Numbered from the stretch's first letter, positions 23,875-38,579 are shown. The stretch is 64,000 nucleotides of DNA from Candidatus Heimdallarchaeota archaeon (GCA_030603365.1 JAUVXV010000007.1:64001-128000), one strand, 5' to 3'. The notes: a model not told the origin generated them from the letters alone. Translations and numbers: made by a program.

Positions 23875-25629
23875 TTAGAAAAGATACTTCACTTTCCACT
23901 CTTTTTTAGGAAACATGTAATTGAAAGTGAAAACAAGAAGAACTAAGCAGACAGCTTCACAAGTGAAAATTAGCCAATATCCAACAACAGCTGAAAAAAT
24001 AAACATAACCATCATTAAAGATATTAGAAGTATAATAAGAACATATTTAGAGAATTTATATTATCCTCTGATTTCTTCAACGACATATTTGTGCTTGAAC
24101 TTACCAAATAAACGAACTTTTAGTAGAAGTCCAGCTACACCAATTATCGGAAAAACAGGTAAGAAGGATAAGGTAAGATACAGTGTTCCAATGAAAATGG
24201 GTGTTTTAATCATTACTAGAAGAGACAGAAGCATACCAATTACTATTGTTCCGAAGAAATATGGAATTTTAGATTTCATCTTGTCTCTTTCGTTGATTGG
24301 TAGAGCTGCCATGATTGTTTCTCCTCCCGTTTCTATAGTTGTTGTACTAACAATCATGGCCATTGTATTTGTCAGTACATAAATCATCATGATAATAAAA
24401 TATGCAGTTACTGTCGTGTTTCCATAGATTACATGAAAGTCTTCAACATAACCAGTAAGTGCAGTATAAATTGGCATCATAATCGGTAATATGAGAACAA
24501 CAATTTGTTGCATTTCTCTTGTGACAATTGAAAGATCACGTTTCATAAAAGCCCTAACTGGAGGAAGATTTTTAGTAGAAATGTCTTCTACTTTTGTTTT
24601 TCTTCTTATGATTTCCTTTCTTTTTATTTCAGGAGATGAAATGTTTCTTAATATAGTAAGAGCTTTTCTAATTACTAAGAAAGTAATTAAACAATAGAAT
24701 AAAAATCCAATAACAGAACCAACTATTGTTAGTGGGGCTACACCGTTAAAATCTAAAACAAACATTGATAGTAGATATCCACTTGAGAAAGGATATGGAA
24801 CAAACGAAAGTATGTTACTAATTAAGGTTGAATCTTTAATAGATAATCCGTTCAAGCCATAAAAAGCATCTAAATTCTGTATACCAATATTTACTGCTCC
24901 TATAATAAACATTGACACAAAGAAATAAGCAAACATGGTTCCAATTCGAATAAAACTTGCTTTTTTTGATGCAAAATCATACTCTTCCATCACAATAGCT
25001 AGTTTTCGTGATAAGATAACCAATATACCAATGTTAAAACATGTGTTAACCAAAGAAAGAACTATACTTATTAGAAGAATAGCAACTATTTTCCAGATAC
25101 TAATATAAGGTCCAATTGTCAAGCTTATAACTACAGTCATTCCAATCGGTAAGACAAGTGTCATGGCAATTAGTTGAACATTGATACTTCTAACGAAAGT
25201 TAGTAAACCTATTTTTTCGATTTCCTTTCTGCTGAATGGGAGTGTGTGTATCCATTCGTAAGGTCCACCAGACATTATTCCCCAAGCTAGCATTAAAGCA
25301 AATACAACCAGAATTACAAGTTGAACAAAGAAGAAGGCACCATTAACAATACCACTAGCAAAATTAAGCCATTCAAATGAAGAACCTTCAGATAATTGTC
25401 GATACATTGAAGAGACTGAAACAATAGGGATAAAAGTTAGTGAAGCGATATATATTGTTGCTAGAAATTTATAGATTATATCTGGAGATCTTGCTATTCT
25501 ATCTTTTTCAATTCTTTCCAGATATCTCTGCTGATTACTTCCAGCAGATTGAAGTTGAGCGTGAAGCACCGCTTCTTTATAGACTCTTTTAGAAGCTTTG
25601 TACAGTTCTTTATTTCTCAGAAGAATCAC
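23875..25629 (-). CDS. ABC-2-type transporter permease with an in-frame TAA at 24061-24063 (possible pseudogene)
   Basis: Multi-TM ORF overlapping the ABC ATPase stop. After the TAA the same frame continues for 61 codons with two more TM helices (YKFSKYVLIILLISLMM...YMFPKKEWKVKYLF*). Confidence 0.75.
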
Positions 25630-26432
25630 TTCTTTTTATCATTATGAAACATCTTCCTAAGATTTTGAATAATATGATTCACTGACTCATCTTGTTGAGT
25701 TAGTTTAAGAAAAATCGTTTCCAGATCAGCACCTGCCTTATCTGCCAGTTCTGAGAGTTCTTTTACTGTACCTAAAGCAACAAGTTTACCTCTATCCAGG
25801 ATAGCTATTCTATCACACATATCCTCTGCAATTTCAAGAATGTGTGTAGAAAAAATAACTGATCCTCCTCTTTCACTATGAAGTTCTATAATCTCTTTTA
25901 CGACTTTGGCAGATTTCGCATCTAAACCTGTAAGTGGTTCATCTAGAATTAGTAAATCTGGATCATGAATTAAAGAGGCTATAACTTGCATCTTCTGTTT
26001 ATTTCCTCGAGAAAGTGTAGCTACAAGTTTTTCATAATATTCAACAGCCTCCAAACTCTCTAGATAATAACGAAGCTTTTCTGTGGTTTCAGCTTCATCT
26101 AAATTACGTATTGAAGTAATGAAATCAAATAACATTCGAGGTGTCATTGACTTATAGATTAGAGGATCTTCTGAAACATATCCTAGTCTTTTTTTAATCT
26201 CTATTTCTTCTTTCTCAGGATGGAGTCCGAAAACCTCAATATCACCTTGATCTAATTCCAGAAGCCCTAAAAGCAATTTCACAGTTGTAGTTTTACCTGC
26301 TCCATTGGGTCCTAACAACCCAAATATTTCTCCAGGTTTGACTTCAAAAGACAAATTATTTACAGCTACAACGTCACCAAAACTCTTAGTAATATTTTGT
26401 ACTTTAACCATTGGTTCTAATTCAACATTCAT
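25626..26432 (-). CDS. ABC transporter ATP-binding protein
   Basis: Walker A GPNGAGKTT, signature LSRGNKQK, Walker B LILDEP, H-loop STH. Confidence 0.95.
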   Translation of the reverse strand: MNVELEPMVKVQNITKSFGDVVAVNNLSFEVKPGEIFGLLGPNGAGKTTTVKLLLGLLELDQGDIEVFGLHPEKEEIEIKKRLGYVSEDPLIYKSMTPRMLFDFITSIRNLDEAETTEKLRYYLESLEAVEYYEKLVATLSRGNKQKMQVIASLIHDPDLLILDEPLTGLDAKSAKVVKEIIELHSERGGSVIFSTHILEIAEDMCDRIAILDRGKLVALGTVKELSELADKAGADLETIFLKLTQQDESVNHIIQNLRKMFHNDKKK

Positions 26433-26520
26433 CACAATCTTCCCACAAGACAAAAGAGGAACATCCCTCTACGATGATTTAGAGAAAGACACTTATTAAT
26501 ATTTACAATCAAAAGCCCAT

Positions 26521-27930
26521 TTAAATCAGCTTCATTAAAAGAGGATTACGCTTAAGTGCTAATCCTATTGCCTTATTTACAAAACTTTTAGGAAAACCTG
26601 AATGCTCGAATAAATTTTGAAAAAGTAATTCTGCTTGCTCTTGCGAATAAAGAGAGAATGAAGTGATAATATATGACATTGAAACTAGTTTTCTTAATTC
26701 ATTAAAGATTTCAATTGCAGTTTTATTAATATCTTTATCAATATTCTTCTCATATAATCCAAAAAAGTACTCACTTGCTTGATGACCTTTAACACTACCT
26801 TCAATGAGATTGATAACAACTATCTCACCAAGCTGATTTTTTGTTAGGATAAGTTTATCAAAGAGTTCTTTGTTCATCCCACATAATCCAACATCAAGTT
26901 CTGAAACAATATTAATTGCATCTTCTTCATTATCTACCCATCCTTTAACTTTTATTGCGAGGTGTTGGTTGAAAATTGAGAGTGTATCAATTGTTATCTT
27001 AACTGTTAATTTATCACCTACAACAATCACTTTTTTTCCTGTTGTTACGGAATACAATACTTGATCTAGATTTTTTAATATAGCATTTGAAAGATACGCT
27101 AATGATAATTCCTCAACATCGGTATGAGTAAAATGGTTCCCAGAATCTTCTATATTTTGAATAAGATCGAGAACATCTAACATTTCAAATCTATAATCTT
27201 GATCAGATAGAATACGCAGTTTCTCCTCAATCAAAGGAAACAATCTGAAAACTGTATGATCTAACTCTGGAGAAAACCTCAGTATTCCTACGTTTGTCCT
27301 CATTTCATCCTTCTCAATAACTAATAGTTCTGAAGTTTTTTTCTCAGGAACAAATAACAGAAGTCCTGTTAACTGATTTTCAAAATCATATTTGATTCTA
27401 TGGTTAATAATCATATCAAGTGTTTCTTTGGCTTCTACTTTTTTACCAACAGATTCAATTATTTCAGTGTCTGTTTCATCAAAATGAATCAAACTAAACA
27501 CCTTGGGTTCTGATTCTCGTAAAGGATTTTTAGAGAAGAATAGAGGTAAATTGTAGATATCATGCAAAATGTGTTCGAGTATTAGAGCTGCTTCTCCTTC
27601 AGAAATCAGATTTTCATCCCTATCTTCAAGCAAAGGACTTGCACTGAAATGAATTTGTTCCAGGATTTGTTCAAGATGTCGCTCTGAGAATAGAGTTTCT
27701 TCTACTTTAGTTTCAAGAATAAAAATAAAATCATAAACTTCAACAAAGGAGATGTTTTTGTCATGATAAGAAATTGATTGAAGTTCTTGACGGTGAACTT
27801 CTTTAGCGAAAGTGATAATTGCACTAATCAAACCTGAGGCTAAGATGTGCCTAGTATCATCAGCTGATTCGGGTTTAGTAGCTAACAACAATCCTGAACC
27901 TGAAACCAGTGAAAGTTGCAAGTTTCGCAT
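26521..27930 (-). CDS. Longin + cDENN/dDENN-like protein, paralogue B
   Basis: N-terminal SGLLLA...LASGLISAIITFAKEV longin motif; NLDQVLYSVTTGKKVIVVGDK..VK..ID.LSIF cDENN-like motif. Colinear with 28788..30194. Confidence 0.65.
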   Translation of the reverse strand: MRNLQLSLVSGSGLLLATKPESADDTRHILASGLISAIITFAKEVHRQELQSISYHDKNISFVEVYDFIFILETKVEETLFSERHLEQILEQIHFSASPLLEDRDENLISEGEAALILEHILHDIYNLPLFFSKNPLRESEPKVFSLIHFDETDTEIIESVGKKVEAKETLDMIINHRIKYDFENQLTGLLLFVPEKKTSELLVIEKDEMRTNVGILRFSPELDHTVFRLFPLIEEKLRILSDQDYRFEMLDVLDLIQNIEDSGNHFTHTDVEELSLAYLSNAILKNLDQVLYSVTTGKKVIVVGDKLTVKITIDTLSIFNQHLAIKVKGWVDNEEDAINIVSELDVGLCGMNKELFDKLILTKNQLGEIVVINLIEGSVKGHQASEYFFGLYEKNIDKDINKTAIEIFNELRKLVSMSYIITSFSLYSQEQAELLFQNLFEHSGFPKSFVNKAIGLALKRNPLLMKLI

Positions 27931-28024
27931 AGTTATTTCATTTAAAGTATCATTTAAGTAAATTTCTTTAGTGCTAATCCATTGAGAAAGATTTTTTTTT
28001 GGAAAGAAAATATCTTAATCCCGA

Positions 28025-28780
28025 ATGAAAACTAGCACTATCCTCTATCAAGAACTAGTTCATAATGCTTGGGCTGCAGAGCATAATGTTCTCTATAAAG
28101 GATGGATATTAAGACTATCAGAAGGGATTACACAAAGAGCAAATAGTGTTCTAACAATCAGATATCTGGGAAATGATGTAATAACTGATATTCGTAATAT
28201 AGAAAATATATTTCAGAGTAGAAATCTTCCGCCTATTTTTCAAGTAGCAGATTATTTTGAACCTTCTAATCTAATTAAAATTTTGATTGGTGAAGGATAT
28301 CATGCCAGAGATGAAACTATAGTTATGAGTAGAAGTACTGAAATATCACAGAATATTGAAAAAAATGAAAATTTGACTTATTTGATTGAGGAAGGAGTCC
28401 CAGATATATGGTTTAAATCATTAACTAAATTTAGTTCCTCATCTGAAATAAGGATTAAAGGTATCGAGAATATAATTAGCAGATCTTCTGCAGAGAAAAT
28501 AACATGTTTTGCTCAAGATGGTAATGAGATAACAGGAATAGTTTTAGGACTTAGGGAAGGAGATTATATTGGGATATATAATCTAACAGTGGATTCCCAA
28601 AGAAGAAGAGAAAGAATCGGTAAGAGCATAATGTTGAAACTAATGGATTGGGCACACAAAAGCAATATAGGGGTGGTTTATCTTGCTGTAGAAGATGACA
28701 ATGTAGGTGCTCGAAAATTATACCAAAAGCTGAATTTTGAAGAGAAATTCAAATACAGATATTTTGTTAGAGAAGAATAA
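28025..28780 (+). CDS. GNAT family N-acetyltransferase
   Basis: NAW.A...GW.LR...G.T.RANSV N-terminus; V....RR..IG and N.GA.KLY.KL.F motifs. Confidence 0.88.
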   Translation: MKTSTILYQELVHNAWAAEHNVLYKGWILRLSEGITQRANSVLTIRYLGNDVITDIRNIENIFQSRNLPPIFQVADYFEPSNLIKILIGEGYHARDETIVMSRSTEISQNIEKNENLTYLIEEGVPDIWFKSLTKFSSSSEIRIKGIENIISRSSAEKITCFAQDGNEITGIVLGLREGDYIGIYNLTVDSQRRRERIGKSIMLKLMDWAHKSNIGVVYLAVEDDNVGARKLYQKLNFEEKFKYRYFVREE

Positions 28781-28787
28781 ATGAATA

Positions 28788-30194
28788 TTAGAGCAGATAG
28801 TCCAAAAGAGGGTTTCTTCTTACTGCCATTTCTAATGCTTTCTTAATAAAAGTTGAAGAATATCCTGATTGAGAACTTATCTCTTTCAATTTCTGTTTAC
28901 CTTTTACTTCATCTACTAAACTAATTGATGTCATATCAAGAGAAAGTGCTACTAGTTTTTCCAGATCTAGAGCTATTTTTGTAACTATTTCTGCTATTGA
29001 TAGTTTCTTTATTGTATCAAATAATTTTTTGAAATGATGGCTTGATTTAGCTCCAGTAACTCGACTATTTACTAGATTGATGCATACATCTGTTTCCTTA
29101 ATTGTTTCACTACTTAGGAGCGCGTTATAAATTTCTGTAGACATTCCACACATTCTAGCCGAAAGATCACACTTTCCATTTTGAGAAAAATCGTCAGCAG
29201 ATATCCACAAATTGACAGAAGTTTGTAGGTGCTGTGTGAATATGGACATAGAATCAATAACAAGTTTTACTGTTGGTTTATCTCCTACAATGAAAATTGG
29301 TTCTCCAATAACTGCAGAATAAATTGCTTTATCAAGATTACGTCCTACAGTTCTAACTAAGAATGAAGGAGATAAATCCTCTAGATTTATTCTTGATAAT
29401 CGATTTCCTGGATCATCGATGTCTTTTAACGTGTTTAATATGCGTTCCATACTCAAAATTTCTTTGTCTTCTGACATTACTGAAAGCATTCTATCCATCA
29501 TAGTAAACAGCCTGAATAACACCAAATCTAATTCACGTGATATCTTTAAAATTCCTACACGAGAAGTTTTTCCATCTGTGTCAATAACAGTATATGTAGT
29601 ACTCTTTTCTTCAGGTATATGTGTTAGTATTCCTTTTAACCCATTAATACATTTTTCATTTGCTTTTAAGGTATCAAGCATCAATGCAATTGTTGGTATA
29701 AATGATCCGGAACCCACCTTATCTTTAATTTCCCAACCTTTGTCTGTATGAAATAATGTGAAATAAGCACTTTCTGACATTTTTAGAGGTTGTTCAGTGA
29801 TTGAATAATGTAATAATTGAACACCTTGTAGACATTTATCTAGAATTATAGCAGCTTCTCCTTCAGTTATTATATTTGGGTCAACTCCTTCTAGAATTGG
29901 TTCTGTACATTCTTTTAACTGTTGGAGTAATTGTCCAAGCTTTTGTTCAGAAAGTGTTGCTTCTTCATCAATAGTTTCCAAAATTAAGACGAATTCGTGT
30001 ACTCTTACAAATGAAACAGTACGATCATGATAAGAGATAGACTGTAATTCTCTATGATGTACTTCTTTAGAAAAAGAAATCAATGCTGTCATTAAGCCTG
30101 TTGCTAAAATCTGTCTTGTATCATCTACAGCTTCAGGTTTTGAAGCTAGAAGTATACCTGAAGAAGTAACAAGAGATATCTTAATGTTTAGCAT
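28788..30194 (-). CDS. Longin + cDENN/dDENN-like protein, paralogue A
   Basis: SGILLA...LATGLMTALISFSKEV longin motif; NLDKAIYSAVIGEPIFIVGDKPTVKLVIDSMSIF; CGM; helical C-terminus ending RNPLL. Confidence 0.65.
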   Translation of the reverse strand: MLNIKISLVTSSGILLASKPEAVDDTRQILATGLMTALISFSKEVHHRELQSISYHDRTVSFVRVHEFVLILETIDEEATLSEQKLGQLLQQLKECTEPILEGVDPNIITEGEAAIILDKCLQGVQLLHYSITEQPLKMSESAYFTLFHTDKGWEIKDKVGSGSFIPTIALMLDTLKANEKCINGLKGILTHIPEEKSTTYTVIDTDGKTSRVGILKISRELDLVLFRLFTMMDRMLSVMSEDKEILSMERILNTLKDIDDPGNRLSRINLEDLSPSFLVRTVGRNLDKAIYSAVIGEPIFIVGDKPTVKLVIDSMSIFTQHLQTSVNLWISADDFSQNGKCDLSARMCGMSTEIYNALLSSETIKETDVCINLVNSRVTGAKSSHHFKKLFDTIKKLSIAEIVTKIALDLEKLVALSLDMTSISLVDEVKGKQKLKEISSQSGYSSTFIKKALEMAVRRNPLLDYLL

Positions 30195-30299
30195 TAGGTG
30201 GTTTTAGAAATTAGTTATATAAATAAATTTACTTTAGACTAAGAGCAGAAAAATCAAGTTAGTATTAATAATAATTGAAGAAAAAGATAGAAAATAAAC

Positions 30300-30485
30300 T
30301 TATTTCATGTTCTTTTCTTGATTTCGTTTATCACGAATCTCATCTAGTACTTCAAGAGTGATGGTAGCTACACCTCTCTCCTTAGCTTGTTCTACTATTT
30401 GAGTCATAGCTTTTTTCAAGAAAACCCTAGTAATAGTGACTATTTTTGCGCAAGCTTTATCTGTCCAATAAACCTCGGAATCTAG
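30300..30485 (-). pseudogene. PCP_red-like (protochlorophyllide reductase C-terminal type) small domain with no in-frame start
   Basis: DSEVYWTDKACAKI...VFLKKAMTQIVEQAKERGVATITLEVLDEIR fits W..eA..........A.e.G...IT.e. Bounded upstream by TGA with no ATG/GTG/TTG. Confidence 0.45.
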
Positions 30486-30501
30486 TCACTTGTCAATATT
30501 A

Positions 30502-31335
30502 TCAGTTCTTAGTATTTTGTTGATATTGCATTTCAAACCAAGATTTCTTTCGTATCAACTTTCTGTACCAAGCTGGCATTACCCACCCAAGATACATTGC
30601 AACATAAGCTGTTGCATATGAGATTGCTCGAAAAGCTGAAATTGTAATCATCAAAGCTGGAATATTAGGAATACTACCATGCAAAGCTGAAAACAACCAC
30701 GCTAATAGATATAAAAACACTCCAACACTAATTGTTTGTAATCCTCTCTTTCTAATAGGGTGATCTGATTTTCTTGCAAGCCTAAAAGCTCTAAATCCTA
30801 TTCTACCTGTAACAAAAATTGAGACTACTATTTGGACTAAAAGGATGGGCCAAGTATATGAAATTGCAAATACATTCTTAGTGATGTAGGTTGGTTCAGA
30901 ATACAATGAATGTGTATATATATTATCATAAGCAATTACAGCAGTAACAATACCATAAACTACCATTATTACAGCAAAAATATAGGTTTTGATAATTTCA
31001 TTATCTTTTAAAATATGTCTACAGCCAAAGAAATAGAGAAATGCAAATGCAGGGAGGATAATTAATGGAGTTAAAGACCCTATCTGATAAATAGTATCAG
31101 TCATCACACCTTCATTGTAAATGAGCGAAATACGGTATGCAATACTAAAAGCTGATGCTAAAGAAAATAGGAAGTAGGATGAAAGTAACATGAATGTGCC
31201 TACAGTTTTCTTGCGAAAGAAGTTGACTAAGAGCGTGATAACTAGTGCTAGACTGAAAGCCATGTTTATTACAGATGTAATAATTATGAAAAATGATGCA
31301 GGTTCTATTGCTGAAAGATCTACCATCATCATCAC
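30502..31335 (-). CDS. Seven-transmembrane receptor-like protein
   Basis: Seven hydrophobic helices, basic loop RAFRLARKSDHPIRKRG between TM5 and TM6, YLGWVMPAWYRK after TM7. The start abuts the GTPase stop. Confidence 0.75.
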   Translation of the reverse strand: MMMMVDLSAIEPASFFIIITSVINMAFSLALVITLLVNFFRKKTVGTFMLLSSYFLFSLASAFSIAYRISLIYNEGVMTDTIYQIGSLTPLIILPAFAFLYFFGCRHILKDNEIIKTYIFAVIMVVYGIVTAVIAYDNIYTHSLYSEPTYITKNVFAISYTWPILLVQIVVSIFVTGRIGFRAFRLARKSDHPIRKRGLQTISVGVFLYLLAWLFSALHGSIPNIPALMITISAFRAISYATAYVAMYLGWVMPAWYRKLIRKKSWFEMQYQQNTKN

Positions 31336-31860
31336 CTAGACAAACTCATCAACAAACCATTTGAAGGCATTGAATATTCCTTCTCCTGTCTTTGCTGAGG
31401 TTTCAAAAACTGCCCATTTAAAAGGTAAATCCAACAACTTGAATTCTTCAATAAAGAGTGATTTTTCTATAACATCAGATTCATCACTCTTATTGAGTAA
31501 AATTAATATTATCAAATCTTGATCCAATTGTGCGTGAATGGTTTGTTCAAACACATCCTTTGCCTCATCAAATCTCATAATATTAGATCGATCAATAACG
31601 AATACAATTCCATCAGATTTTTCGTTGATATTGTGCCACATATTTCTGAAATCTTCCTGACCAGCTAAATCAAAAACGTTAATTTGTAAATTTGGTAAGT
31701 GTAAGGTTTCTCTATTCACACCCATAGTTGGAGTTGTTTCAACGAATTCACCAGTTTCTAGAAACTTTAGTATAGTTGTTTTACCAGCATCATCTAGACC
31801 ACAGATTGTTATATCTGCATGTTTTGTTCTGCTTCGAAATAGGTTTAGTAAGAACGACAT
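31336..31860 (-). CDS. Arf-family (ArfR-like) small GTPase
   Basis: Amphipathic N-terminus MSFLLNLFR, G1 GLDDAGKTT, G2 PTMG, G3 FDLAGQEDFRNMW, G4 NKSD, G5 ETSAK. Confidence 0.92.
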   Translation of the reverse strand: MSFLLNLFRSRTKHADITICGLDDAGKTTILKFLETGEFVETTPTMGVNRETLHLPNLQINVFDLAGQEDFRNMWHNINEKSDGIVFVIDRSNIMRFDEAKDVFEQTIHAQLDQDLIILILLNKSDESDVIEKSLFIEEFKLLDLPFKWAVFETSAKTGEGIFNAFKWFVDEFV

Positions 31861-31873
31861 ATTTTTCCCTCAA

Positions 31874-32368
31874 CTAATCCCACAAATCATCAGATAGCTT
31901 ATCTATCGCATTACCATTCTTGTCATTTCCTTGTTTTGGAAAATCAAATTTTATGGTTGACGTAGAAGTTATCTCTATTTTGAACTGTCCTTTGCTAAAT
32001 CCTTTGTAAAGTTTCGGTAAAATTCCTTCCAAAGTACTGGTTGCCAATAGATCTTTCTTTTCAAGTTCTGTTACTACCCAAGAGAACACTTGTTTAATAG
32101 AAGTAGCATCATAATCAGTCGTATTGAATACAGCAACTAATGAAGCAAGATTATCTCTTTGATCAGCAGTAGGTATGCGAAATATATAACTTGTCAAATT
32201 TAGATCATTAAAAGTCGTTGAAGCAAAATCCCCTGGGTTTGATCCCATCGGGATAGTTTTGTAAACAAGCTGACTCATTGAATCAGTAGGTATAACATCG
32301 GGGAAAGATTTGACTAACTCTAATCCCCTTGCGCCCATATTAATTAGACATAAACTTAATGGTTTCAC
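31874..32368 (-). CDS. Stand-alone uDENN/longin-like protein
   Basis: LCLINMGARGLELVKSFP (beta1-beta2), then YIFRIPTADQRDNLASLVAVF (beta4-loop-beta5), then helices. Ends 13 nt upstream of the GTPase. Confidence 0.55.
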   Translation of the reverse strand: MKPLSLCLINMGARGLELVKSFPDVIPTDSMSQLVYKTIPMGSNPGDFASTTFNDLNLTSYIFRIPTADQRDNLASLVAVFNTTDYDATSIKQVFSWVVTELEKKDLLATSTLEGILPKLYKGFSKGQFKIEITSTSTIKFDFPKQGNDKNGNAIDKLSDDLWD

Positions 32369-32806: not shown

Positions 32807-34225
32807 ATGGAAAAAGATTATGTTTTTGATCTATTAAACAAAGCAGTTGATCAAGGTCATAAACTTGGTGCAGACTTTTTAGAAGCTAGATATGATGATT
32901 TACAATTAACTACAATAAATTTAACAAATGATATCATTAAACAATCCTCTTCTATAAATAGAAAAGGTATTGGTGTTATGGCTTATTATCAAGGTACACC
33001 AGGTTATAGTTTTACTCCTGAATTAAGTTCAGAAGGTGTGGCAGAAGCTACAAAGAAAGCAGTAAAACTAGCAAAGTCAACTGATATAAGAAATAAGCTT
33101 AAGCTTGATTTTGATAAGATTAAACCAATCAAAGATCATATAGAAGTTAAAGCTAAAAAACATCCAAAAGACTATGAATTTGATGATAAACTCGCTATGC
33201 TAAAACGAGGAGTTTCAGCCATCAAAGAACAAGTAGATGCAACAAGTACTACTGGAATGTATGGAGAGATGTATGGTGAAAAGTTCTTCATTAATTCTGA
33301 AGGATCTGAGATTTATTGGGTTCCAATGATTGTTGACATGAGAATGGTTGCTGTTCTAATTAGTGAAGGACAACAAGCAATGGGTGCAGAAGGAATAGGA
33401 GCTTCTAAAGGTCTTGAGCACTTTGATGAAAAAGGACGTTCTCCAGAAGACTTCGGAACTATTGCAGGAAAAGACTGTAAAGATTCTTTGAACGCTGTTG
33501 CAGCTCCTACTGGCAAAACAACAACTCTTGTATCTCCTCAAATGGGAGGAGTAGTTGTTCATGAATCATTTGGTCATTTATCAGAAGCAGACTTTGTTGT
33601 TACTGGTCAATCTCCAATTGCAGATAGAGTGGGTGAACAACTTGGAAGTGAGCATGTTACAATTATCGATGAAGGCGTTCCTGAACAAGGAGGTTTGTTC
33701 TTTCCATATGATGATCAAGGAACTAAAACTGGAAAAACCGTTCTAGTTGAAGATGGAATTCTGAAAGGATATCTTCATAATAGAGGTACTGCTAAGAAAA
33801 TGAACTCTGAATTAACTGGAAACTGCAGGGCAATAAACTTCTTGTATAATCCTATAGTACGAATGAAAAATACTTACTTTGGAGCAGGAAATCTAACTTT
33901 TGAAGAAGCTCTAGAAGAAGTAGGTACAGGAATATATGCAGTAGATATGTCTGGAGGACAAGTTGGATTAGATGGAAACTTCATGTTCAATTGTCGCAAA
34001 GGATATCTCATCGAAAATGGAGAGATAACTAAACCCATAAAAAATTCCTCTTTATCTGGAAATATTTTAGAATTACTCAAATATATTAAAGGTGCAACCA
34101 AAGATATTGAAATTCGAACTGGTTATTTTGGTGGATGTGGTAAAAATGGTCAAAATGGTTTACCTGTTGGTTTAGGTGGTCCTAATGTAATTATGGATCA
34201 AGTTCTTGTTGGAGGTGCTCAATAA
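32807..34225 (+). CDS. tldD: TldD metalloprotease subunit, copy 1
   Basis: HESFGHLSEAD (HExxxH), YDDQG, RMKNTY, GGCGK..Q..PVG.GGP. Confidence 0.92.
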   Translation: MEKDYVFDLLNKAVDQGHKLGADFLEARYDDLQLTTINLTNDIIKQSSSINRKGIGVMAYYQGTPGYSFTPELSSEGVAEATKKAVKLAKSTDIRNKLKLDFDKIKPIKDHIEVKAKKHPKDYEFDDKLAMLKRGVSAIKEQVDATSTTGMYGEMYGEKFFINSEGSEIYWVPMIVDMRMVAVLISEGQQAMGAEGIGASKGLEHFDEKGRSPEDFGTIAGKDCKDSLNAVAAPTGKTTTLVSPQMGGVVVHESFGHLSEADFVVTGQSPIADRVGEQLGSEHVTIIDEGVPEQGGLFFPYDDQGTKTGKTVLVEDGILKGYLHNRGTAKKMNSELTGNCRAINFLYNPIVRMKNTYFGAGNLTFEEALEEVGTGIYAVDMSGGQVGLDGNFMFNCRKGYLIENGEITKPIKNSSLSGNILELLKYIKGATKDIEIRTGYFGGCGKNGQNGLPVGLGGPNVIMDQVLVGGAQ

Positions 34226-35601
34226 TGTCCTTAGATGATCTTAGAAATAAAATTTTGAATATTGCCGATACAACTATTAAACACTCTAGAGACTTAAATA
34301 TTCCCTCAACAGAAGTATTTGTTCTAGAACAATCTACAACAAACTTAACCGATAATAAAGGTAAAGTTGATAGTAGAGATGGATTAGTTCAAGGAATAGG
34401 TATCAGAGTAGCAGTAGGTAAGAAACTAGGATTTGCAAGTTGTACAGGATTTGATGAAGAAACAATTAAATCCACTCTTAAACAAGCTCACAGTATTGCC
34501 AATGTAAGTCCTGAAAATCCAATGTTCAATGGTTTTGTAGCTGAAACCAAAATGTCAAAAGAAGGTATTTTAGACCCAGATATCCCACATCTTGATGCAG
34601 ATGATCTAATCGAGAAATGCAATATTATGAATCAAGAAGTTGATCTAAGTGACAGAAGGATTATTTCAGGAAGTTTTGGTGCTAATATTGCATATCAGGG
34701 ATTTGCAATTGCAACTACTGAAGGATGCTTAGCTTCTTCTCTTCAAACAACATTTGGAGCTAATTCTTACTTTGTTGTTACTGATGCTGGAGACCGAAAA
34801 ACAGCTCAAGATTTTGTAGCAGCAAGGAAAGTAGAATCAGTTGAAGGAATTGCTCCTAAAGCACTCAATAAAGCAATTAGTTCCTTGGGATCCAAAGCTT
34901 TTGGAGGATCAGAAGTTCTACCAACCATTTGGGAACCTCGTGAATCTGCTCCATTTCTAGCATTTGCATTTTTCAATGTTTTCTCAGGATCTGCTTATGT
35001 AGAAAAAAGCAATCCATGGAAAGAAAAATTGAATGAAAAGGTGGCTGTAAAAGAATTGACTGTTATTGATGATGGTCAAAAACCTGATACTGAAGCTTGT
35101 CAATCTATTGATGCTGAAGGTACTCCAAAACAAACAACTGCTATCATAGAAGATGGAGTATTGAAGACTTTTCTATTTAATAAAATGTACGGAGATGCTG
35201 CTGGTTTTAGTACTACAGGAAATGCACAGCGAGGAGGAATCTTTGGTGGCACACCTTACGAAAATATACCTGTTGTAGGACCAAATCAGATGATGATTAA
35301 AGAAGTCGCAAAAAACCTTGAAGAACAGATCTCAGAAATAGATAAAGGAATTCTTATTACTGGAACACCAATTGGGTTGTTTACAGCTAATCCTGTTACA
35401 GGTGACTTCAGTGTTACATGCAATGATACATTTCTAATTGAAAAAGGAGAAAAAGTTCATCCTCTGAAATCTATAAGTATTGCAGGGAACTACTTTGAGA
35501 CCTTGAATAATATCCGTTTCATTGGAAATGACACAGAACAATCTGGATGGCCGATTGATGCTCCAAGTATGACCTTTCTGAACCATACAATCTCAGATTA
35601 A
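34225..35601 (+). CDS. tldE: TldE/PmbA subunit, copy 1
   Basis: GIGIRV, DAEG.P, TGNA.R, TGDFS, SIAGN; no HExxxH. Confidence 0.88.
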   Translation: MSLDDLRNKILNIADTTIKHSRDLNIPSTEVFVLEQSTTNLTDNKGKVDSRDGLVQGIGIRVAVGKKLGFASCTGFDEETIKSTLKQAHSIANVSPENPMFNGFVAETKMSKEGILDPDIPHLDADDLIEKCNIMNQEVDLSDRRIISGSFGANIAYQGFAIATTEGCLASSLQTTFGANSYFVVTDAGDRKTAQDFVAARKVESVEGIAPKALNKAISSLGSKAFGGSEVLPTIWEPRESAPFLAFAFFNVFSGSAYVEKSNPWKEKLNEKVAVKELTVIDDGQKPDTEACQSIDAEGTPKQTTAIIEDGVLKTFLFNKMYGDAAGFSTTGNAQRGGIFGGTPYENIPVVGPNQMMIKEVAKNLEEQISEIDKGILITGTPIGLFTANPVTGDFSVTCNDTFLIEKGEKVHPLKSISIAGNYFETLNNIRFIGNDTEQSGWPIDAPSMTFLNHTISD

Positions 35602-35785
35602 ATTCTTCTTTTCCTTTCTTTTTTTATTATTTAACCAATCGGTTTTGAATAATTTTATAAATATCCTAAGCATGAAAATTTCAATCCTAATCATGTTTAC
35701 AAATATTCTTAACATGATAATGTGACCGACTTGTGACCAGTTACTTAAAGTAAAGTGCTCAAACAAGTACTTATAGAAACACAAG

Positions 35786-37210
35786 GTGAAAATAGTGGAA
35801 AATGATTATGTTTTTGATCTATTACATAAAGCAGTTGATCAAGGTCATAAACTAGGTGCAGATTTTGTAGAGGCAAGGTACGATGATTTAACCTTAACAA
35901 CTATAAACTATACAAATGAAAAGGTTCGAGAATCTTCTACTAAACAACGTAGAGGAATAGGTGTTATGACATATGTCAAGGGTTCTCCCGGATATTCATT
36001 TACACCAGACATAACTTCAGAAGCAATTCAAGAAACCACAAAACGGTCTCTTGGGATAGCAAAAGCTACTGAACCTCTTTTAACTTTTAAGCACATTTAT
36101 GATGATCGATCTTCGATCAAAGATTCAATTGTAAAGAAAGTAAAAATTCATCCTAAGGAAGTTGAATTTGACGAAAAACTTGACATGCTTAAGCGTGGAA
36201 TAGCTAACGCTAAGGATCAGGTTGATGCTCAATCTACAACAGGTATGTGGGGAGAACTCTGGGGAGATAAATTATTTGTAAACTCTGAACAATCTGAGAT
36301 TTATTGGACCCCACTCTTGTTTGATCTACGTATAATGGCAGTTGCTATGACTGAAACTTCTCAAGCTCGTGGTTCTGATGGAGTAGGACAATCTCAAGGG
36401 ATGGAATATTTTGATATTGAAGCTCACAGCCCTGAAACTCTAGGAACCAATGCTGGTAAATGGTGCAAAGAGCAAATTGATGCTGTTTCTGCTCCACCAG
36501 GAAAACATAGAGCTTTAGTAGGACCAAGAATGGCAGGTGTTCTTGCACATGAAAGTTTTGGTCACCTCTCTGAAACTGATTTTGTTATTACTGGTATGTC
36601 TCCAATTTCAGATAGAGTAGGAGAACAACTTGGAACTGAGCATGCGACTATCATTGATGAAGGTATTACAAAAGAAGGTGGATTCTTCTTACCTTATGAT
36701 GATCAAGGAACTAAAACTGGAAAAACCGTTCTAATGGACAAGGGTATGCTACTGGGTTATCTACATGATAGAAGTACAGCTAATAAAATGAATACTGAAC
36801 CTACTGGAAATTCTAGAGCTATTACTTTTATGTTCCCATCGATACCAAGAATGAAAAATACTTATTTCAAGCCTGGAAACATAAGTTTTGATGAAGCTGT
36901 AGAACAAGTTGGAGATGGTCTCTATACAGCTGGAACTTCAGGAGGTCAAACAGACCTTGATGGTACATTTCTGTTCAAATGTAGTCGTGGATACCTGATT
37001 GAAAATGGCGAGATTACCAAACCTATCAAAGATGCTGCACTCTCAGGTCAAATTCTAGAATTCATTCAACAAATTAGTGGAGTTACAAATGAGATGGACA
37101 TATTTACTAGTTACTTTGGCGGATGCGGAAAAGGTGGTCAATATCCTCTTCCAGTTGGATTAGGTGGACCTAGTCTGGTTGTTGATGAGGTTTTAGTTGG
37201 TGGTGAATGA
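35786..37210 (+). CDS. tldD: TldD metalloprotease subunit, copy 2
   Basis: HESFGHLSETD, RMKNTY, GGCGKGGQ.PLPVG.GGP. Confidence 0.92.
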   Translation: MKIVENDYVFDLLHKAVDQGHKLGADFVEARYDDLTLTTINYTNEKVRESSTKQRRGIGVMTYVKGSPGYSFTPDITSEAIQETTKRSLGIAKATEPLLTFKHIYDDRSSIKDSIVKKVKIHPKEVEFDEKLDMLKRGIANAKDQVDAQSTTGMWGELWGDKLFVNSEQSEIYWTPLLFDLRIMAVAMTETSQARGSDGVGQSQGMEYFDIEAHSPETLGTNAGKWCKEQIDAVSAPPGKHRALVGPRMAGVLAHESFGHLSETDFVITGMSPISDRVGEQLGTEHATIIDEGITKEGGFFLPYDDQGTKTGKTVLMDKGMLLGYLHDRSTANKMNTEPTGNSRAITFMFPSIPRMKNTYFKPGNISFDEAVEQVGDGLYTAGTSGGQTDLDGTFLFKCSRGYLIENGEITKPIKDAALSGQILEFIQQISGVTNEMDIFTSYFGGCGKGGQYPLPVGLGGPSLVVDEVLVGGE

Positions 37211-37211
37211 A

Positions 37212-38579
37212 ATGGTTTTAGAAAAAATTCGTTCTGAACTCTTAGAAGTTGCTGATTTAGCTTTGAAATATTCTAAAGATCTAGCTGTACCTACAGCTGA
37301 AGCTTTCATCATTAAGAACTCACTTACTGAAATCAAATATTCTAAAGGTAAAACTGAATGCAGAGATGGTATGGTTCAAGGTATCGGTATTAGAGTAGCA
37401 GTTGGAAAGCAAGTAGGTTTCGCAACATGTGCTGGTTTTGCTTCTGAATCACTTAAAACAACAATTGAAAACGCACACAAAATTGCTAAGAATAGTCCAG
37501 AAGATCCTAGATTCTCAGGATTTGTAGCAGAGAGTAAACCTGGTAAAGAAGGTAATCTTGACGTAAACATAGTAAATCTAGAAACGGCTTCTCTAATTGG
37601 ACAAATGGCTGAATTAATCAAAGAAAGCAATATAGACGATCAAAGGTTGGTAGGAGCTGATTTAGAAATAGGTACTGAATGGGGAGGTTATGCAGTAGCA
37701 ACCACAGAAGGTTGTTTAGTCTCGTCCATGCATACTACTCATTATGGAACTGCATACGCAGTTACTATGGGACAAGATGAAAGATCCACCGCTTTTGGGT
37801 TTAAAGCTGGTCTAACTCTTCAAGATTTATCTGGAATTGGAACTTCTGCAATCGAGAAAGCTCTCAAGCATCTTGGCTCAAGTCCATTAGGAGAAACTGT
37901 TAAAATACCTACAATATGGGAACCAATTTCAGCATCTATGCTCTTGAGTACAACTTTTACTGTTGGATTAAACGGTGGTACAGTAGTCGAAAAAAGAAAT
38001 CCTTTGATGAGCAAACTTAATGAACAAATTGCCAATAAAGATTTTCAACTCTACGATGATGGTACTAATCCAGAAAAACTATCTTGTGAAGCAGTAGATG
38101 CTGAAGGATCTACAGTGAGAAAAACAGAAATCATAAAAGATGGAGTTCTGAAGAATTTCCTCTTCGACAATTTCTATGGCCCAGTCTTTGGTGCAGGTAG
38201 TACAGGTAATGCTAGACGCAATCCTCCAACTGAATATGAGAGTCTCCCTACTATAGGTCCTAATAAATTGGTAATTCAACCAGGTACAAAGAATCTTGAT
38301 GAGATAATAGCGGGTTTTGATGATGCTATATACATTGAAGGTTTCCCAATGGGTATGGGGCATAGTAACATGATCACTGGTGATTTTTCAGTAACAGCTA
38401 CAAACGCATATCTTGTAAAGAATGGAGAGATTGTACATCCTCTTAAACCAGTTAGTATAGCAGGTAATTTCTTCAAGTCTCTTAATGATTTAGAACATGT
38501 TGGATCAGATACTATTGACTTGCCATTCCCACTAGAAAGTTCAACTTTAGCAATTAATAACCACACTATAAGTGGTTAA
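37212..38579 (+). CDS. tldE: TldE/PmbA subunit, copy 2
   Basis: GIGIRV, DAEG, STGNARR, TGDFS, SIAGN. Start ATG 37212. Confidence 0.88.
   Translation: MVLEKIRSELLEVADLALKYSKDLAVPTAEAFIIKNSLTEIKYSKGKTECRDGMVQGIGIRVAVGKQVGFATCAGFASESLKTTIENAHKIAKNSPEDPRFSGFVAESKPGKEGNLDVNIVNLETASLIGQMAELIKESNIDDQRLVGADLEIGTEWGGYAVATTEGCLVSSMHTTHYGTAYAVTMGQDERSTAFGFKAGLTLQDLSGIGTSAIEKALKHLGSSPLGETVKIPTIWEPISASMLLSTTFTVGLNGGTVVEKRNPLMSKLNEQIANKDFQLYDDGTNPEKLSCEAVDAEGSTVRKTEIIKDGVLKNFLFDNFYGPVFGAGSTGNARRNPPTEYESLPTIGPNKLVIQPGTKNLDEIIAGFDDAIYIEGFPMGMGHSNMITGDFSVTATNAYLVKNGEIVHPLKPVSIAGNFFKSLNDLEHVGSDTIDLPFPLESSTLAINNHTISG

What the first reader, a model, noticed from the sequence alone, without database searches (positions are those of the whole stretch)
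26521..30194. Two diverged longin-cDENN paralogues: possible heterodimer resembling C9orf72-SMCR8 / FLCN-FNIP
Seen: 468- and 469-aa colinear paralogues with highly similar longin N-termini (DDTR.ILA.GL..A.I.F.KEVH..ELQSISYHD), diverged middles, and a motif A.YS...G..(I/V)..VGDK.TVK..ID..SIF. As I recall it, that motif resembles the SMCR8 cDENN segment (AVYSLLSGRTLVVLG...VRKLV.AL.IF). A GNAT gene on the opposite strand separates them. Neither has an obvious ARG finger. Inference: they dimerise via the longin domains, and the catalytic Arg may come in trans from a separate uDENN protein (a split DENN).
Basis: partly seen in the sequence, partly recalled or inferred. Interest (0 to 1): 0.72.

Follow-up and report, generated by a model that had tools for sequence, protein, structure and literature searches.

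The report
Paired archaeal longin-longin-DENN proteins
A Heimdall-group (Asgard) archaeon carries two adjacent sister genes whose proteins are predicted to fold like eukaryotic folliculin/SMCR8-type DENN regulators of small GTPases with one extra longin domain in front; proteins of this kind were already reported in these archaea, and the pairing is a recent local duplication, not an ancestor of the eukaryotic pairs.

Summary
ORFs 26521-27930 (A, 469 aa) and 28788-30194 (B, 468 aa) are colinear paralogues (38% identity, E 2e-109) split by an opposite-strand GNAT gene.

- longin 1 (residues 1-132);
- a second longin, the uDENN equivalent (141-242);
- a cDENN+dDENN module (about 249-468), which matches the folliculin C-terminal domain (Z 11.7, 173 of 199 residues), DENND1A and SMCR8.

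Neither longin has the GP motif or an invariant arginine at the GAP-finger loop, so a FLCN-type GAP is unlikely.

The heterodimer test gave weak support only (ipSAE 0.51, best control 0.00).

B then A is a same-strand tandem in 7 of 9 other same-genus genomes searched. Sister genera have one copy. The duplication is therefore lineage-specific and unrelated to the FLCN/FNIP or SMCR8/C9orf72 splits.

The 164-aa neighbour is an NPRL2-type longin (Z 15.6) with an invariant loop arginine. Its Arf block is only sometimes linked to A and B, so "split DENN" is not supported.

Liu et al. already reported FLCN-like longin-DENN proteins in Heimdallarchaea. This is a new architectural variant of a known kind.

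The parts
28788..30194 (-). Paralogue B, 468 aa, longin-longin-DENN protein (the slower-evolving copy)
   Evidence: ORF; AF2 model pLDDT 83.5, pTM 0.73; 35-member B clade
29799..30194 (-). B longin 1 (aa 1-132), beta-beta-alpha-beta-beta-beta-alpha-alpha
   Evidence: DSSP on the model; Sec22b 1ifq_B Z 13.7 rmsd 2.8 124 aligned; Fuzzy 7q3d_C Z 11.9; MON1A 9lol_A Z 11.5; sub-threshold Pfam Intu_longin_1 E 9.7e-4
29469..29774 (-). B longin 2 / uDENN equivalent (aa 141-242)
   Evidence: beta-beta-alpha-beta-beta-beta-alpha in the model; model 141-461 aligns to whole FLCN 6nzd_H, longin plus DENN, Z 11.9, 257 aligned, though rmsd 23.3 A reflects a different domain orientation
28791..29450 (-). B cDENN + dDENN (aa 249-468); holds the AIYS..G..I.VGDKPTVK..ID..SIF.QH motif at the first strand-loop-helix
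   Evidence: FLCN C-terminal domain 3v42_B Z 11.7 rmsd 3.1 173/199; DENND1A 6ekk_A Z 11.9 (chain 163-373); DENND1B 3tw8_C Z 11.6; SMCR8 6lt0_B Z 11.9; Atlas shape and feature hits
26521..27930 (-). Paralogue A, 469 aa, same three-domain layout by colinear alignment (the faster-evolving copy)
   Evidence: ORF; colinear alignment to B; 14-member A clade; partner pLDDT 79-80 in the complex runs
28025..28780 (+). GNAT acetyltransferase on the opposite strand between B and A; present in some genomes only
   Evidence: Pfam; present in L001/L002; absent in L003, where B and A are 56 bp apart; B-A gaps from 62 to about 860 bp across the genus
31874..32368 (-). 164-aa NPRL2-type longin with invariant Arg71 in the beta4-beta5 loop (neighbour; facultatively linked)
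   Evidence: Alignment A5; AF2 pLDDT 76; the 14 Foldseek matches at E <= 0.001 are all NPRL2/NPRL3/Npr2/Npr3; NPRL2 8fw5_B Z 15.6 rmsd 3.0 145 aligned
31336..31860 (-). Arf-family small GTPase, 174 aa (neighbour)
   Evidence: Pfam Arf 8.2e-41
30502..31335 (-). 277-aa multi-pass (about 7 TM) membrane protein directly after the Arf gene (neighbour)

Best explanation
A and B are tandem-duplicated members of a small Heimdallarchaeaceae-restricted subfamily of the DENN superfamily. Each has an extra N-terminal longin, a second longin in the uDENN position, and a cDENN+dDENN module nearest to folliculin, SMCR8, C9orf72 and DENND1. Shown: the paralogy, the fold, the narrow distribution and the tandem inheritance. 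Inferred: the two proteins associate. The likeliest contact is the unusually conserved longin 1 (63% identity in its core against about 32% elsewhere), by analogy with other longin platforms. The complex would then act on a small GTPase as an exchange factor or a non-catalytic platform, not as an arginine-finger GAP. In genomes where the longin-Arf-7TM block lies directly upstream, as here, the Arf-like GTPase is the obvious candidate client and the NPRL2-type small longin the candidate GAP. That link is facultative, so the client may differ between genomes. B keeps ancestral residues and A has diverged, as expected if one subunit degenerated after duplication.
For: Paralogy: 38% identity, E 2e-109. 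Fold: AF2 pLDDT 83.5 with a longin-longin-alpha/beta-helical layout. Foldseek top hits are DENND1B, C9orf72, DENND10, BLOC-3, MON1-CCZ1, FLCN, FNIP2 and SMCR8 at E 5e-7 to 1e-4. VIA gives FLCN C-terminal domain Z 11.7 (173/199, rmsd 3.1), DENND1A Z 11.9, SMCR8 Z 11.9 and whole FLCN over model 141-461. Atlas by shape: a Heimdall 380-aa cluster (23% carry Pfam Folliculin) at TM 0.51/0.61, then SMCR8 and DENND11. Atlas by features: the same cluster 0.92, C9orf72-like 0.88, Folliculin 0.86. Sequence hints: faint or weak SMCR8_C on B orthologues and Folliculin_C E 0.008 on a paralogue related to the A/B profile at E 1.6e-20. Pairing: ipSAE 0.51 (runs 0.54, 0.51, 0.49) against a best control of 0.00; the runs agree in at least 92% of contacts and the partner pLDDT is at least 78; the mark was reached by 58 of 80 solved complexes and 2 of 110 mismatches, but scores of 0.60 or less are graded weak. 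B and A are adjacent on the same strand in 7 of 9 other same-genus genomes, with gaps as small as 56-62 bp. The subclades of the A and B trees pair up by shared contig. Not a GAP: no GP motif and no invariant Arg at the finger loops. Arf link: longin-Arf-TM sits upstream of B-A in the window, L003, G097 and G148.
Against: There is no significant sequence-profile match to any DENN, Folliculin or SMCR8 family in the local Pfam, NCBIfam or PDB sequence searches, so homology rests on predicted structure plus sub-threshold hits. The complex score is in the range the tool calls more often wrong than right unless the pairing was likely beforehand, and close paralogues of a true partner also pass, so a homodimer is not excluded. 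Sister genera manage with one copy. In this window the two genes are on separate transcription units, split by the convergent/divergent GNAT. Five same-genus genomes have B-A without the Arf block, and the single-copy gene in a closed genome sits among housekeeping genes, so no GTPase client is established. No biochemical activity is known for any archaeal DENN protein in the papers found.
Confidence: 0.6

Rival explanations
1. One reading: A and B form a FLCN-FNIP or C9orf72-SMCR8-like GAP heterodimer through their longin domains, and the catalytic arginine is supplied in trans by the 164-aa longin (a 'split DENN').
For: The fold resembles FLCN/SMCR8/C9orf72. The small longin has an invariant Arg71 in the beta4-beta5 loop and is NPRL2-like. 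It lies 1.7 kb upstream of B here and in L003, G097 and G148. B keeps basic residues near the finger loops that A lacks: position 64 is R28/K6 in B against Gln in A, and position 212 is R16/K14 against Ile/Glu.
Against: A and B lack the GP motif that marks GAP longins. The B-specific basic residues exchange freely with Lys. A and B already contain a uDENN-equivalent longin, so nothing is split. The small longin is absent at E<=1e-10 from five same-genus genomes that have B-A. It is present without A/B in G086 and in six copies in G123.
Confidence: 0.1
2. Subfunctionalised paralogues that do not bind each other: each acts alone or as a homodimer, as the single-copy ancestor must have done, on different small GTPases.
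For: Single-copy genomes exist in sister genera, including closed ones. A and B differ by about 68% in longin 2 and DENN. They are separate transcription units in this window. The A copy in G142 carries an in-frame TAG, hinting that A can be dispensable. The complex test cannot separate hetero- from homodimers.
Against: The pair stays adjacent in 7 of 9 other same-genus genomes searched, sometimes 56-62 bp apart on one strand. Longin 1 is held at 63% core identity, as if one shared interface were conserved. The heterodimer test reached the mark with all controls at 0.00.
Confidence: 0.25
3. A tri-longin-type (Mon1-Ccz1, Fuzzy-Inturned, BLOC-3-like) exchange factor: the two longin-1 domains pair to form the catalytic GEF surface, and the DENN module is only a scaffold.
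For: Sub-threshold Pfam Intu_longin_1 hits on B and on four relatives (best 2.8e-4) and Fuz_longin_1 on one. Foldseek hits BLOC-3, MON1A-CCZ1 and Fuzzy-Inturned at E 3e-6 to 3e-4. Longin 1 against Fuzzy gives Z 11.9 and against MON1A Z 11.5. Those complexes are heterodimers of paralogues. Longin 1 is the most conserved domain.
Against: The third domain is DENN, not a longin. The longin-1 Z scores tie with Sec22, VAMP7 and adaptor sigma subunits, so they are not specific. All the Pfam hits are below the gathering score.
Confidence: 0.12

Closest known systems
Asgard longin-DENN (FLCN-like) proteins described by Liu et al. (bioRxiv 10.1101/2020.10.19.343400; later Nature 2021)
   Same: Heimdallarchaeial proteins combining longin and DENN domains, expanded as paralogue families, sometimes next to a Roadblock/longin protein and a small GTPase. 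The nearest Atlas cluster is a 380-aa Heimdall cluster partly annotated Folliculin. This genome also has 326- and 366-aa relatives of that shorter type.
   Different: A and B carry an additional N-terminal longin (three domains, about 468 aa). They occur as a conserved tandem pair. The neighbouring GTPase is Arf-like with an NPRL2-type longin and a 7TM protein, not the LAMTOR1-like plus Rab-like set of the operon described there. I could not see that paper's figure 5b, so I cannot say whether this exact architecture is drawn in it.
Eukaryotic FLCN-FNIP and C9orf72-SMCR8 longin-DENN heterodimers (GAPs for Rag and Arf GTPases)
   Same: Longin followed by cDENN/dDENN (FLCN 3v42_B Z 11.7; SMCR8 6lt0_B Z 11.9). 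Two diverged paralogues that may pair. One copy is more conserved than the other.
   Different: No GP motif and no invariant arginine finger. There is an extra N-terminal longin. The duplication arose inside one archaeal family, so it is a parallel, not an ancestor, of the eukaryotic pairs. No significant sequence-profile match.
DENND1A/B Rab35 exchange factors (canonical uDENN-cDENN-dDENN)
   Same: The tripartite DENN layout. Model 267-466 aligns to DENND1A 163-373 (Z 11.9) and DENND1B (Z 11.6); DENND1B is the top Foldseek hit, E 5.4e-7. DENND longins lack the GP motif according to PMC12290439, and so do the A/B longins.
   Different: About 8-12% identity, an extra longin, no Pfam DENN match, and the client GTPase is unknown.
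Tri-longin RabGEFs (Mon1-Ccz1, Fuzzy-Inturned, HPS1-HPS4)
   Same: Two consecutive N-terminal longins, a heterodimer of paralogues, weak Intu/Fuz longin-1 profile hits.
   Different: The third domain is DENN instead of a longin.

Membership tests
DENN superfamily (fold level) | Longin-like uDENN followed by an alpha/beta cDENN and a helical dDENN | tested here: met
   AF2 model of B: longin at 141-242, alpha/beta plus helical part at 249-468. FLCN C-terminal domain Z 11.7 (173/199, rmsd 3.1), DENND1A Z 11.9, DENND1B Z 11.6, SMCR8 Z 11.9, whole FLCN over 141-461. This rests on a predicted model, not on a solved structure.
DENN superfamily (sequence level: Pfam DENN, Folliculin, Folliculin_C, SMCR8_C) | A profile match above the curated threshold | tested here: inconclusive
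   No hit in the local Pfam for A, B, 28 relatives or the C-terminal halves. Only faint or weak precomputed SMCR8_C hits (PF27109, not in the local library), FNIP_C at 0.036 on one relative and Folliculin_C at 0.008 on a 326-aa paralogue.
Longin-type GAP subunits (FLCN, SMCR8, C9orf72, NPRL2) | GP motif just before strand 2 of the longin (definition from PMC12290439) | tested here: not met
   In longin 1, G13 is conserved but followed by I/L. The longin 2 loop is variable (B K-G-W, A T-D-I). No GP in 68 family members.
Longin-type GAP subunits (FLCN, SMCR8, C9orf72, NPRL2) | Invariant arginine finger in the longin loop next to the GP site (the beta4-beta5 loop) | tested here: not met
   The longin 1 turn is H/Y-D/E. 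The nearby position 64 is R28/K6 in B and Gln in A. Longin 2 position 212 is R16/K14 in B and I/E in A. None is invariant Arg. Assigning the finger to the beta4-beta5 loop rests on the NPRL2-like small longin model and on my own topological reasoning.
FLCN-FNIP / C9orf72-SMCR8-type heterodimer | The two paralogous subunits bind each other | tested here: inconclusive
   ipSAE 0.51 against a best control of 0.00, graded weak support; no interface was reported.
Tri-longin-domain RabGEFs (Mon1-Ccz1 type) | Three consecutive longin domains | tested here: not met
   Only two longins. The third domain aligns to the FLCN and DENND1 DENN modules over 173-188 residues.
NPRL2-type longin (for the 164-aa neighbour) | Longin fold closest to NPRL2/Npr2, with an arginine in the finger loop | tested here: met
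   NPRL2 8fw5_B Z 15.6 (145 aligned, rmsd 3.0) and Npr2 8adl_S Z 14.6, against 12.8 or less for other longins. The 14 Foldseek matches at E <= 0.001 are all GATOR1/SEACIT subunits. R71 is invariant in 20 sequences and lies in the beta4-beta5 loop. Residue-level equivalence to NPRL2 R78 was not shown. The strict GP dipeptide is replaced by G15-L16.
Arf family GTPase (for 31336-31860) | A Pfam Arf match above threshold | tested here: met
   PF00025, E 8.2e-41, 139.8 bits against a cutoff of 22.3.

The most novel reading that the evidence does not exclude
A and B form an independently evolved archaeal longin-DENN heterodimer that is the exchange factor for the neighbouring Arf-like GTPase. With the NPRL2-type longin as GAP and the 7TM protein as membrane partner, this 6-kb cluster would then encode a complete GTPase cycle (switch, GEF, GAP, receptor) in a prokaryote. 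It would also show that paralogue heterodimerisation of longin-DENN regulators arose more than once.
Probability: 0.15. Interest if true: 0.8.

Novelty: new variant of a known kind. Interest (0 to 1): 0.45.

Why it matters
DENN and longin regulators of small GTPases are central to eukaryotic membrane traffic and nutrient signalling. Their presence in Heimdallarchaeia is part of the case that this machinery predates eukaryotes. This locus offers a compact, expressible test set: two DENN paralogues, an NPRL2-like longin, an Arf-like GTPase and a 7TM protein. With it one could ask whether archaeal DENN proteins have GEF or GAP activity at all, and whether paired subunits arise readily by duplication. 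The pair itself is a recent, family-level duplication and says nothing direct about the origin of FLCN/FNIP or SMCR8/C9orf72.

Tried and rejected
1. My own idea that B Arg58 (35/35 Arg in B; 9 Lys and 5 Arg in A) is an arginine finger. Rejected: it lies in the beta3-beta4 turn, at the opposite end of the sheet from the GP and finger site. The NPRL2-like small longin has its Arg in the beta4-beta5 loop.
2. Profile searches of the A/B family and of the small-longin family against PDB sequences: only chance-level hits (MutS at 0.12; Tli4_C at 0.37).
3. Pfam on the C-terminal halves of ten diverse members, and NCBIfam on A, B and neighbours: nothing relevant.
4. PF27109 could not be queried because it is not in the local Pfam library.
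5. Subfamily assignment by structure: FLCN, SMCR8 and DENND1A/B tie at Z 11-12, so none can be preferred.
6. Expression: no RNA holder is listed for window 26521-32368.
7. A conserved GTPase neighbourhood for the family as a whole: not found. L001/L002 have TldD/PmbA genes next to B. L004 (= G003) and the closed genome G026 have unrelated or housekeeping neighbours.
8. 'Split DENN': rejected, see the first-reader verdict.
9. Homodimer against heterodimer comparison: not possible, because only one complex job was available.
Full report
**Observation**

The two ORFs are real and lie where stated: A = 26521-27930 (-), 469 aa; B = 28788-30194 (-), 468 aa. They align end to end with one single-residue gap, at 38% identity and 62% positives, E 2e-109. 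Identity is uneven. Longin 1 is 53% identical (63% over residues 1-75), the middle domain 32% and the C-terminal domain 33%. The gene between them, 28025-28780 (+), is a GNAT acetyltransferase (Rv0428c_C 1.5e-16). It converges on B's stop codon (7 bp away) and diverges from A's start codon (94 bp away).

**Organism and family size**

All homologues come from Heimdallarchaeota / Heimdallarchaeaceae / 'Asgard group' metagenome bins. An exhaustive phmmer search of 1.84 billion representative proteins found only 43 clusters at E <= 0.001. In a sample of 151 Asgard genomes, matches at E <= 1e-20 occur in 12 genomes including G000. These fall in family f1 (10 of 13) and f2 (1 of 4). None was found in the other 25 families searched.

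**Architecture**

An AlphaFold2 model of B built on 40 sequences is confident (mean pLDDT 83.5, pTM 0.73). It has three parts:
- **Residues 1-132** have the longin order of secondary structure (two strands, helix, three strands, two helices).
- **Residues 141-242** form a second longin (two strands, helix, three strands, helix).
- **Residues 249-468** form an alpha/beta domain with a helical C-terminal bundle.

Foldseek against the PDB ranks these hits at E 5e-7 to 1e-4: DENND1B-Rab35, C9orf72, DENND10, BLOC-3, MON1A-CCZ1, DENND1A, FLCN, FNIP2 and SMCR8. Whole-chain TM scores are low (0.32 or less) because the domain orientations differ.

Domain-level alignment resolves the picture:
- Longin 1 matches Sec22b (Z 13.7), VAMP7, Fuzzy (Z 11.9) and MON1A (Z 11.5).
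- Residues 273-461 match the crystal structure of the folliculin C-terminal DENN domain (3v42_B: Z 11.7, rmsd 3.1 A, 173 of 199 residues).
- Residues 267-466 match DENND1A 163-373, that is cDENN plus dDENN (Z 11.9).
- SMCR8 gives Z 11.9.
- Model 141-461 aligns to whole FLCN, longin plus DENN (257 residues).

The ESM Atlas agrees. By shape, the nearest cluster is a 380-aa Heimdallarchaeial cluster in which 23% of members carry Pfam Folliculin (TM 0.51/0.61 over residues 82-468), followed by SMCR8 and DENND11. By sequence features, the same cluster scores 0.92, followed by C9orf72-like, Folliculin and SMCR8 clusters.

**Sequence-level support is thin**

No Pfam, NCBIfam or PDB-sequence match reaches significance. 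Three hints exist:
- B orthologues carry faint or weak precomputed hits to PF27109, named SMCR8_C.
- One relative gives FNIP_C at 0.036.
- A 326-aa paralogue in this genome is related to the A/B profile at E 1.6e-20.

**GAP hallmarks are missing**

PMC12290439 defines a GP motif just before strand 2 of the GAP-type longins (FLCN, SMCR8, C9orf72, NPRL2). The motif lies next to the arginine finger and is absent from FNIP2, NPRL3 and DENND proteins.

Across the 68 family members examined, neither longin has GP. G13 is conserved but is followed by Ile or Leu. Neither beta4-beta5 loop has an invariant Arg. B does keep basic residues that A lacks: position 64 is R28/K6 against Gln, and position 212 is R16/K14 against Ile/Glu. 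Their free exchange with Lys argues against catalysis.

I first suspected Arg58 (invariant in B, mostly Lys in A). It sits in the beta3-beta4 turn at the wrong end of the sheet, so I rejected it.

**Heterodimer**

The single complex job used B and A with their own alignments. It gave ipSAE 0.54, 0.51 and 0.49 (median 0.51) against 0.00 for all three controls. The runs agree in at least 92% of contacts and the partner pLDDT is at least 78. The tool grades this 'weak support'. The mark was reached by 58 of 80 solved complexes and 2 of 110 mismatches, but only 7 of those 80 solved complexes, and both mismatches that passed, scored 0.60 or less. Close relatives of a true partner also pass, and like complexes have been solved. 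A homodimer is therefore not excluded.

Genomic evidence adds modest weight:
- Seven of the 9 other same-genus genomes searched carry both copies, always adjacent and on the same strand.
- The gaps are 62 bp (G148), 94 bp (G097), 222 bp (G068) and about 860 bp where the GNAT is inserted (G045, G127).
- In L003, A follows B after 56 bp.
- Subclades of the A and B trees pair up by shared contig: P0018/P0039, P0026/P0037, P0011/P0041, P0010/P0047 and P0017/P0042.

**Age of the duplication**

A quick maximum-likelihood tree of 68 proteins separates an A clade (14 rows, SH-aLRT 98) from a B clade (35 rows, SH-aLRT 90), with single-copy outgroups.
- The single copy of sister genus g2 (G003 = P0036) is the deepest B branch.
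- The single copy of g3 (closed genome G026) is P0051-like and falls outside both clades.

The duplication therefore happened within one archaeal family after g3 diverged. It is a parallel to the eukaryotic FLCN/FNIP, NPRL2/NPRL3 and SMCR8/C9orf72 duplications, not their source. Whether g2 lost A, or A is a fast-evolving later duplicate, is unresolved.

**Neighbours and the 'split DENN' idea**

Upstream on the same strand lie three genes:
- A 164-aa protein at 31874-32368.
- An Arf-family GTPase at 31336-31860 (Pfam Arf 8e-41).
- A 277-aa membrane protein with about seven helices at 30502-31335.

The 164-aa protein folds as a longin (pLDDT 76). The 14 Foldseek matches at E <= 0.001 are all NPRL2/NPRL3/Npr2/Npr3. 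VIA gives NPRL2 Z 15.6 (145 residues, rmsd 3.0) and Npr2 Z 14.6, against 12.8 or less for other longins. Arg71 is invariant in 20 homologues and lies in the beta4-beta5 loop. Model residues 2-146 align to NPRL2 6-162, which places Arg71 near NPRL2 Arg78. That position, and the surrounding NPRL2 sequence, are my recollection and were not shown at residue level. This protein is a plausible stand-alone GAP for the Arf-like GTPase, as earlier notes of this scan also proposed.

It is not a missing piece of A and B. They have their own uDENN longin, and the linkage is facultative:
- The block lies upstream of B-A in G000, G097, G148 and L003.
- Five same-genus genomes with B-A have no close orthologue of the small longin. 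L001/L002 have TldD/PmbA genes directly beside B.
- G086 has the small longin without A/B, and G123 has six copies of it without A/B.
- The single-copy gene in closed genome G026 sits between primase and alanyl-tRNA synthetase genes.

**Prior knowledge**

Liu et al. (bioRxiv 10.1101/2020.10.19.343400) reported DENN proteins across Asgard archaea and a conserved Roadblock + small GTPase + DENN operon. [quoted passage not shown] PMC12290439 described Heimdallarchaeial FLCN/SMCR8-type longins with a GP motif and an Arg finger. No paper in the searchable library treats a paired longin-longin-DENN subfamily or reports an activity for an archaeal DENN protein.

**Verdict**

- The longin-DENN reading is supported at fold level.
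- The heterodimer is plausible but only weakly supported.
- The trans-arginine 'split DENN' mechanism is not supported.

The most likely function is a GTPase-binding platform or exchange factor, probably a B:A heterodimer held together at least partly by the strongly conserved longin 1. The neighbouring Arf-like GTPase is a candidate client, not an established one. This is a new architectural variant (an extra longin and a tandem pair) of a kind already known in Asgard archaea.

Noticed in passing
window 48356-50365 (-): A 669-aa ORF with a long helical-repeat N-terminal part and a C-terminal domain that matches the longin-1 part of the A/B profile (E 2.8e-5; shared ...LLSGLLMAITQFAE... motif). 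The genome has at least seven other proteins with this longin type, some 440-730 aa long.
   Followed up: partly
window 31874-32368 (-): The collection's gene call for this window's small longin starts at Met11 (154 aa, P0089). The ten residues upstream (MKPLSLCLIN, GTG start) are conserved in 18 of 19 homologues, so the 164-aa form is the real one.
   Followed up: yes
window 30195-30501: The 307-bp gap between the 7TM gene and B holds only a 35-codon ORF (about 30300-30407, minus strand) and an AT-rich stretch just upstream of B's ATG. In L003 a 286-aa gene (faint Flavin_Reduct) occupies the same position, so a gene may have been lost here.
   Followed up: partly
B residues 24-48 (window about 30051-30125, minus strand): The most sequence-conserved segment of the whole family (helix 1 of longin 1, ...ILATGLMTALISFSKEVH...) is the only part of the AF2 model with pLDDT below 50. 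This would fit a segment that is ordered only on binding a partner.
   Followed up: no
G142:C101:22235-23632 (related genome): The A-type copy in this same-genus genome carries one in-frame TAG. It could be a pseudogene or an assembly error.
   Followed up: no
G123 (same class, another family), six loci: Six copies of the NPRL2-type small longin in one genome that has no A/B-family match at E<=1e-20.
   Followed up: no
window 24061-26453 (-): An ABC ATPase (drrA-like, 3.7e-58) and a 522-aa multi-pass permease lie directly downstream of A. The same pair (ABC ATPase + 12TM_1) follows A in L003 but not in L001.
   Followed up: partly
window 32807-38579 (+): Four consecutive ORFs of about 460-475 aa. 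By synteny with L001 they correspond to four tandem PmbA/TldD-family genes, which directly abut B in genomes lacking the Arf block. This suggests the longin-Arf-7TM block was inserted or deleted at this spot.
   Followed up: partly
L007:1417-2397 (-) = G000 contig 12: A 326-aa paralogue made of the longin-1 type domain joined directly to a DENN module, with no second longin. It has a sub-threshold Folliculin_C hit (E 0.008).
   Followed up: partly
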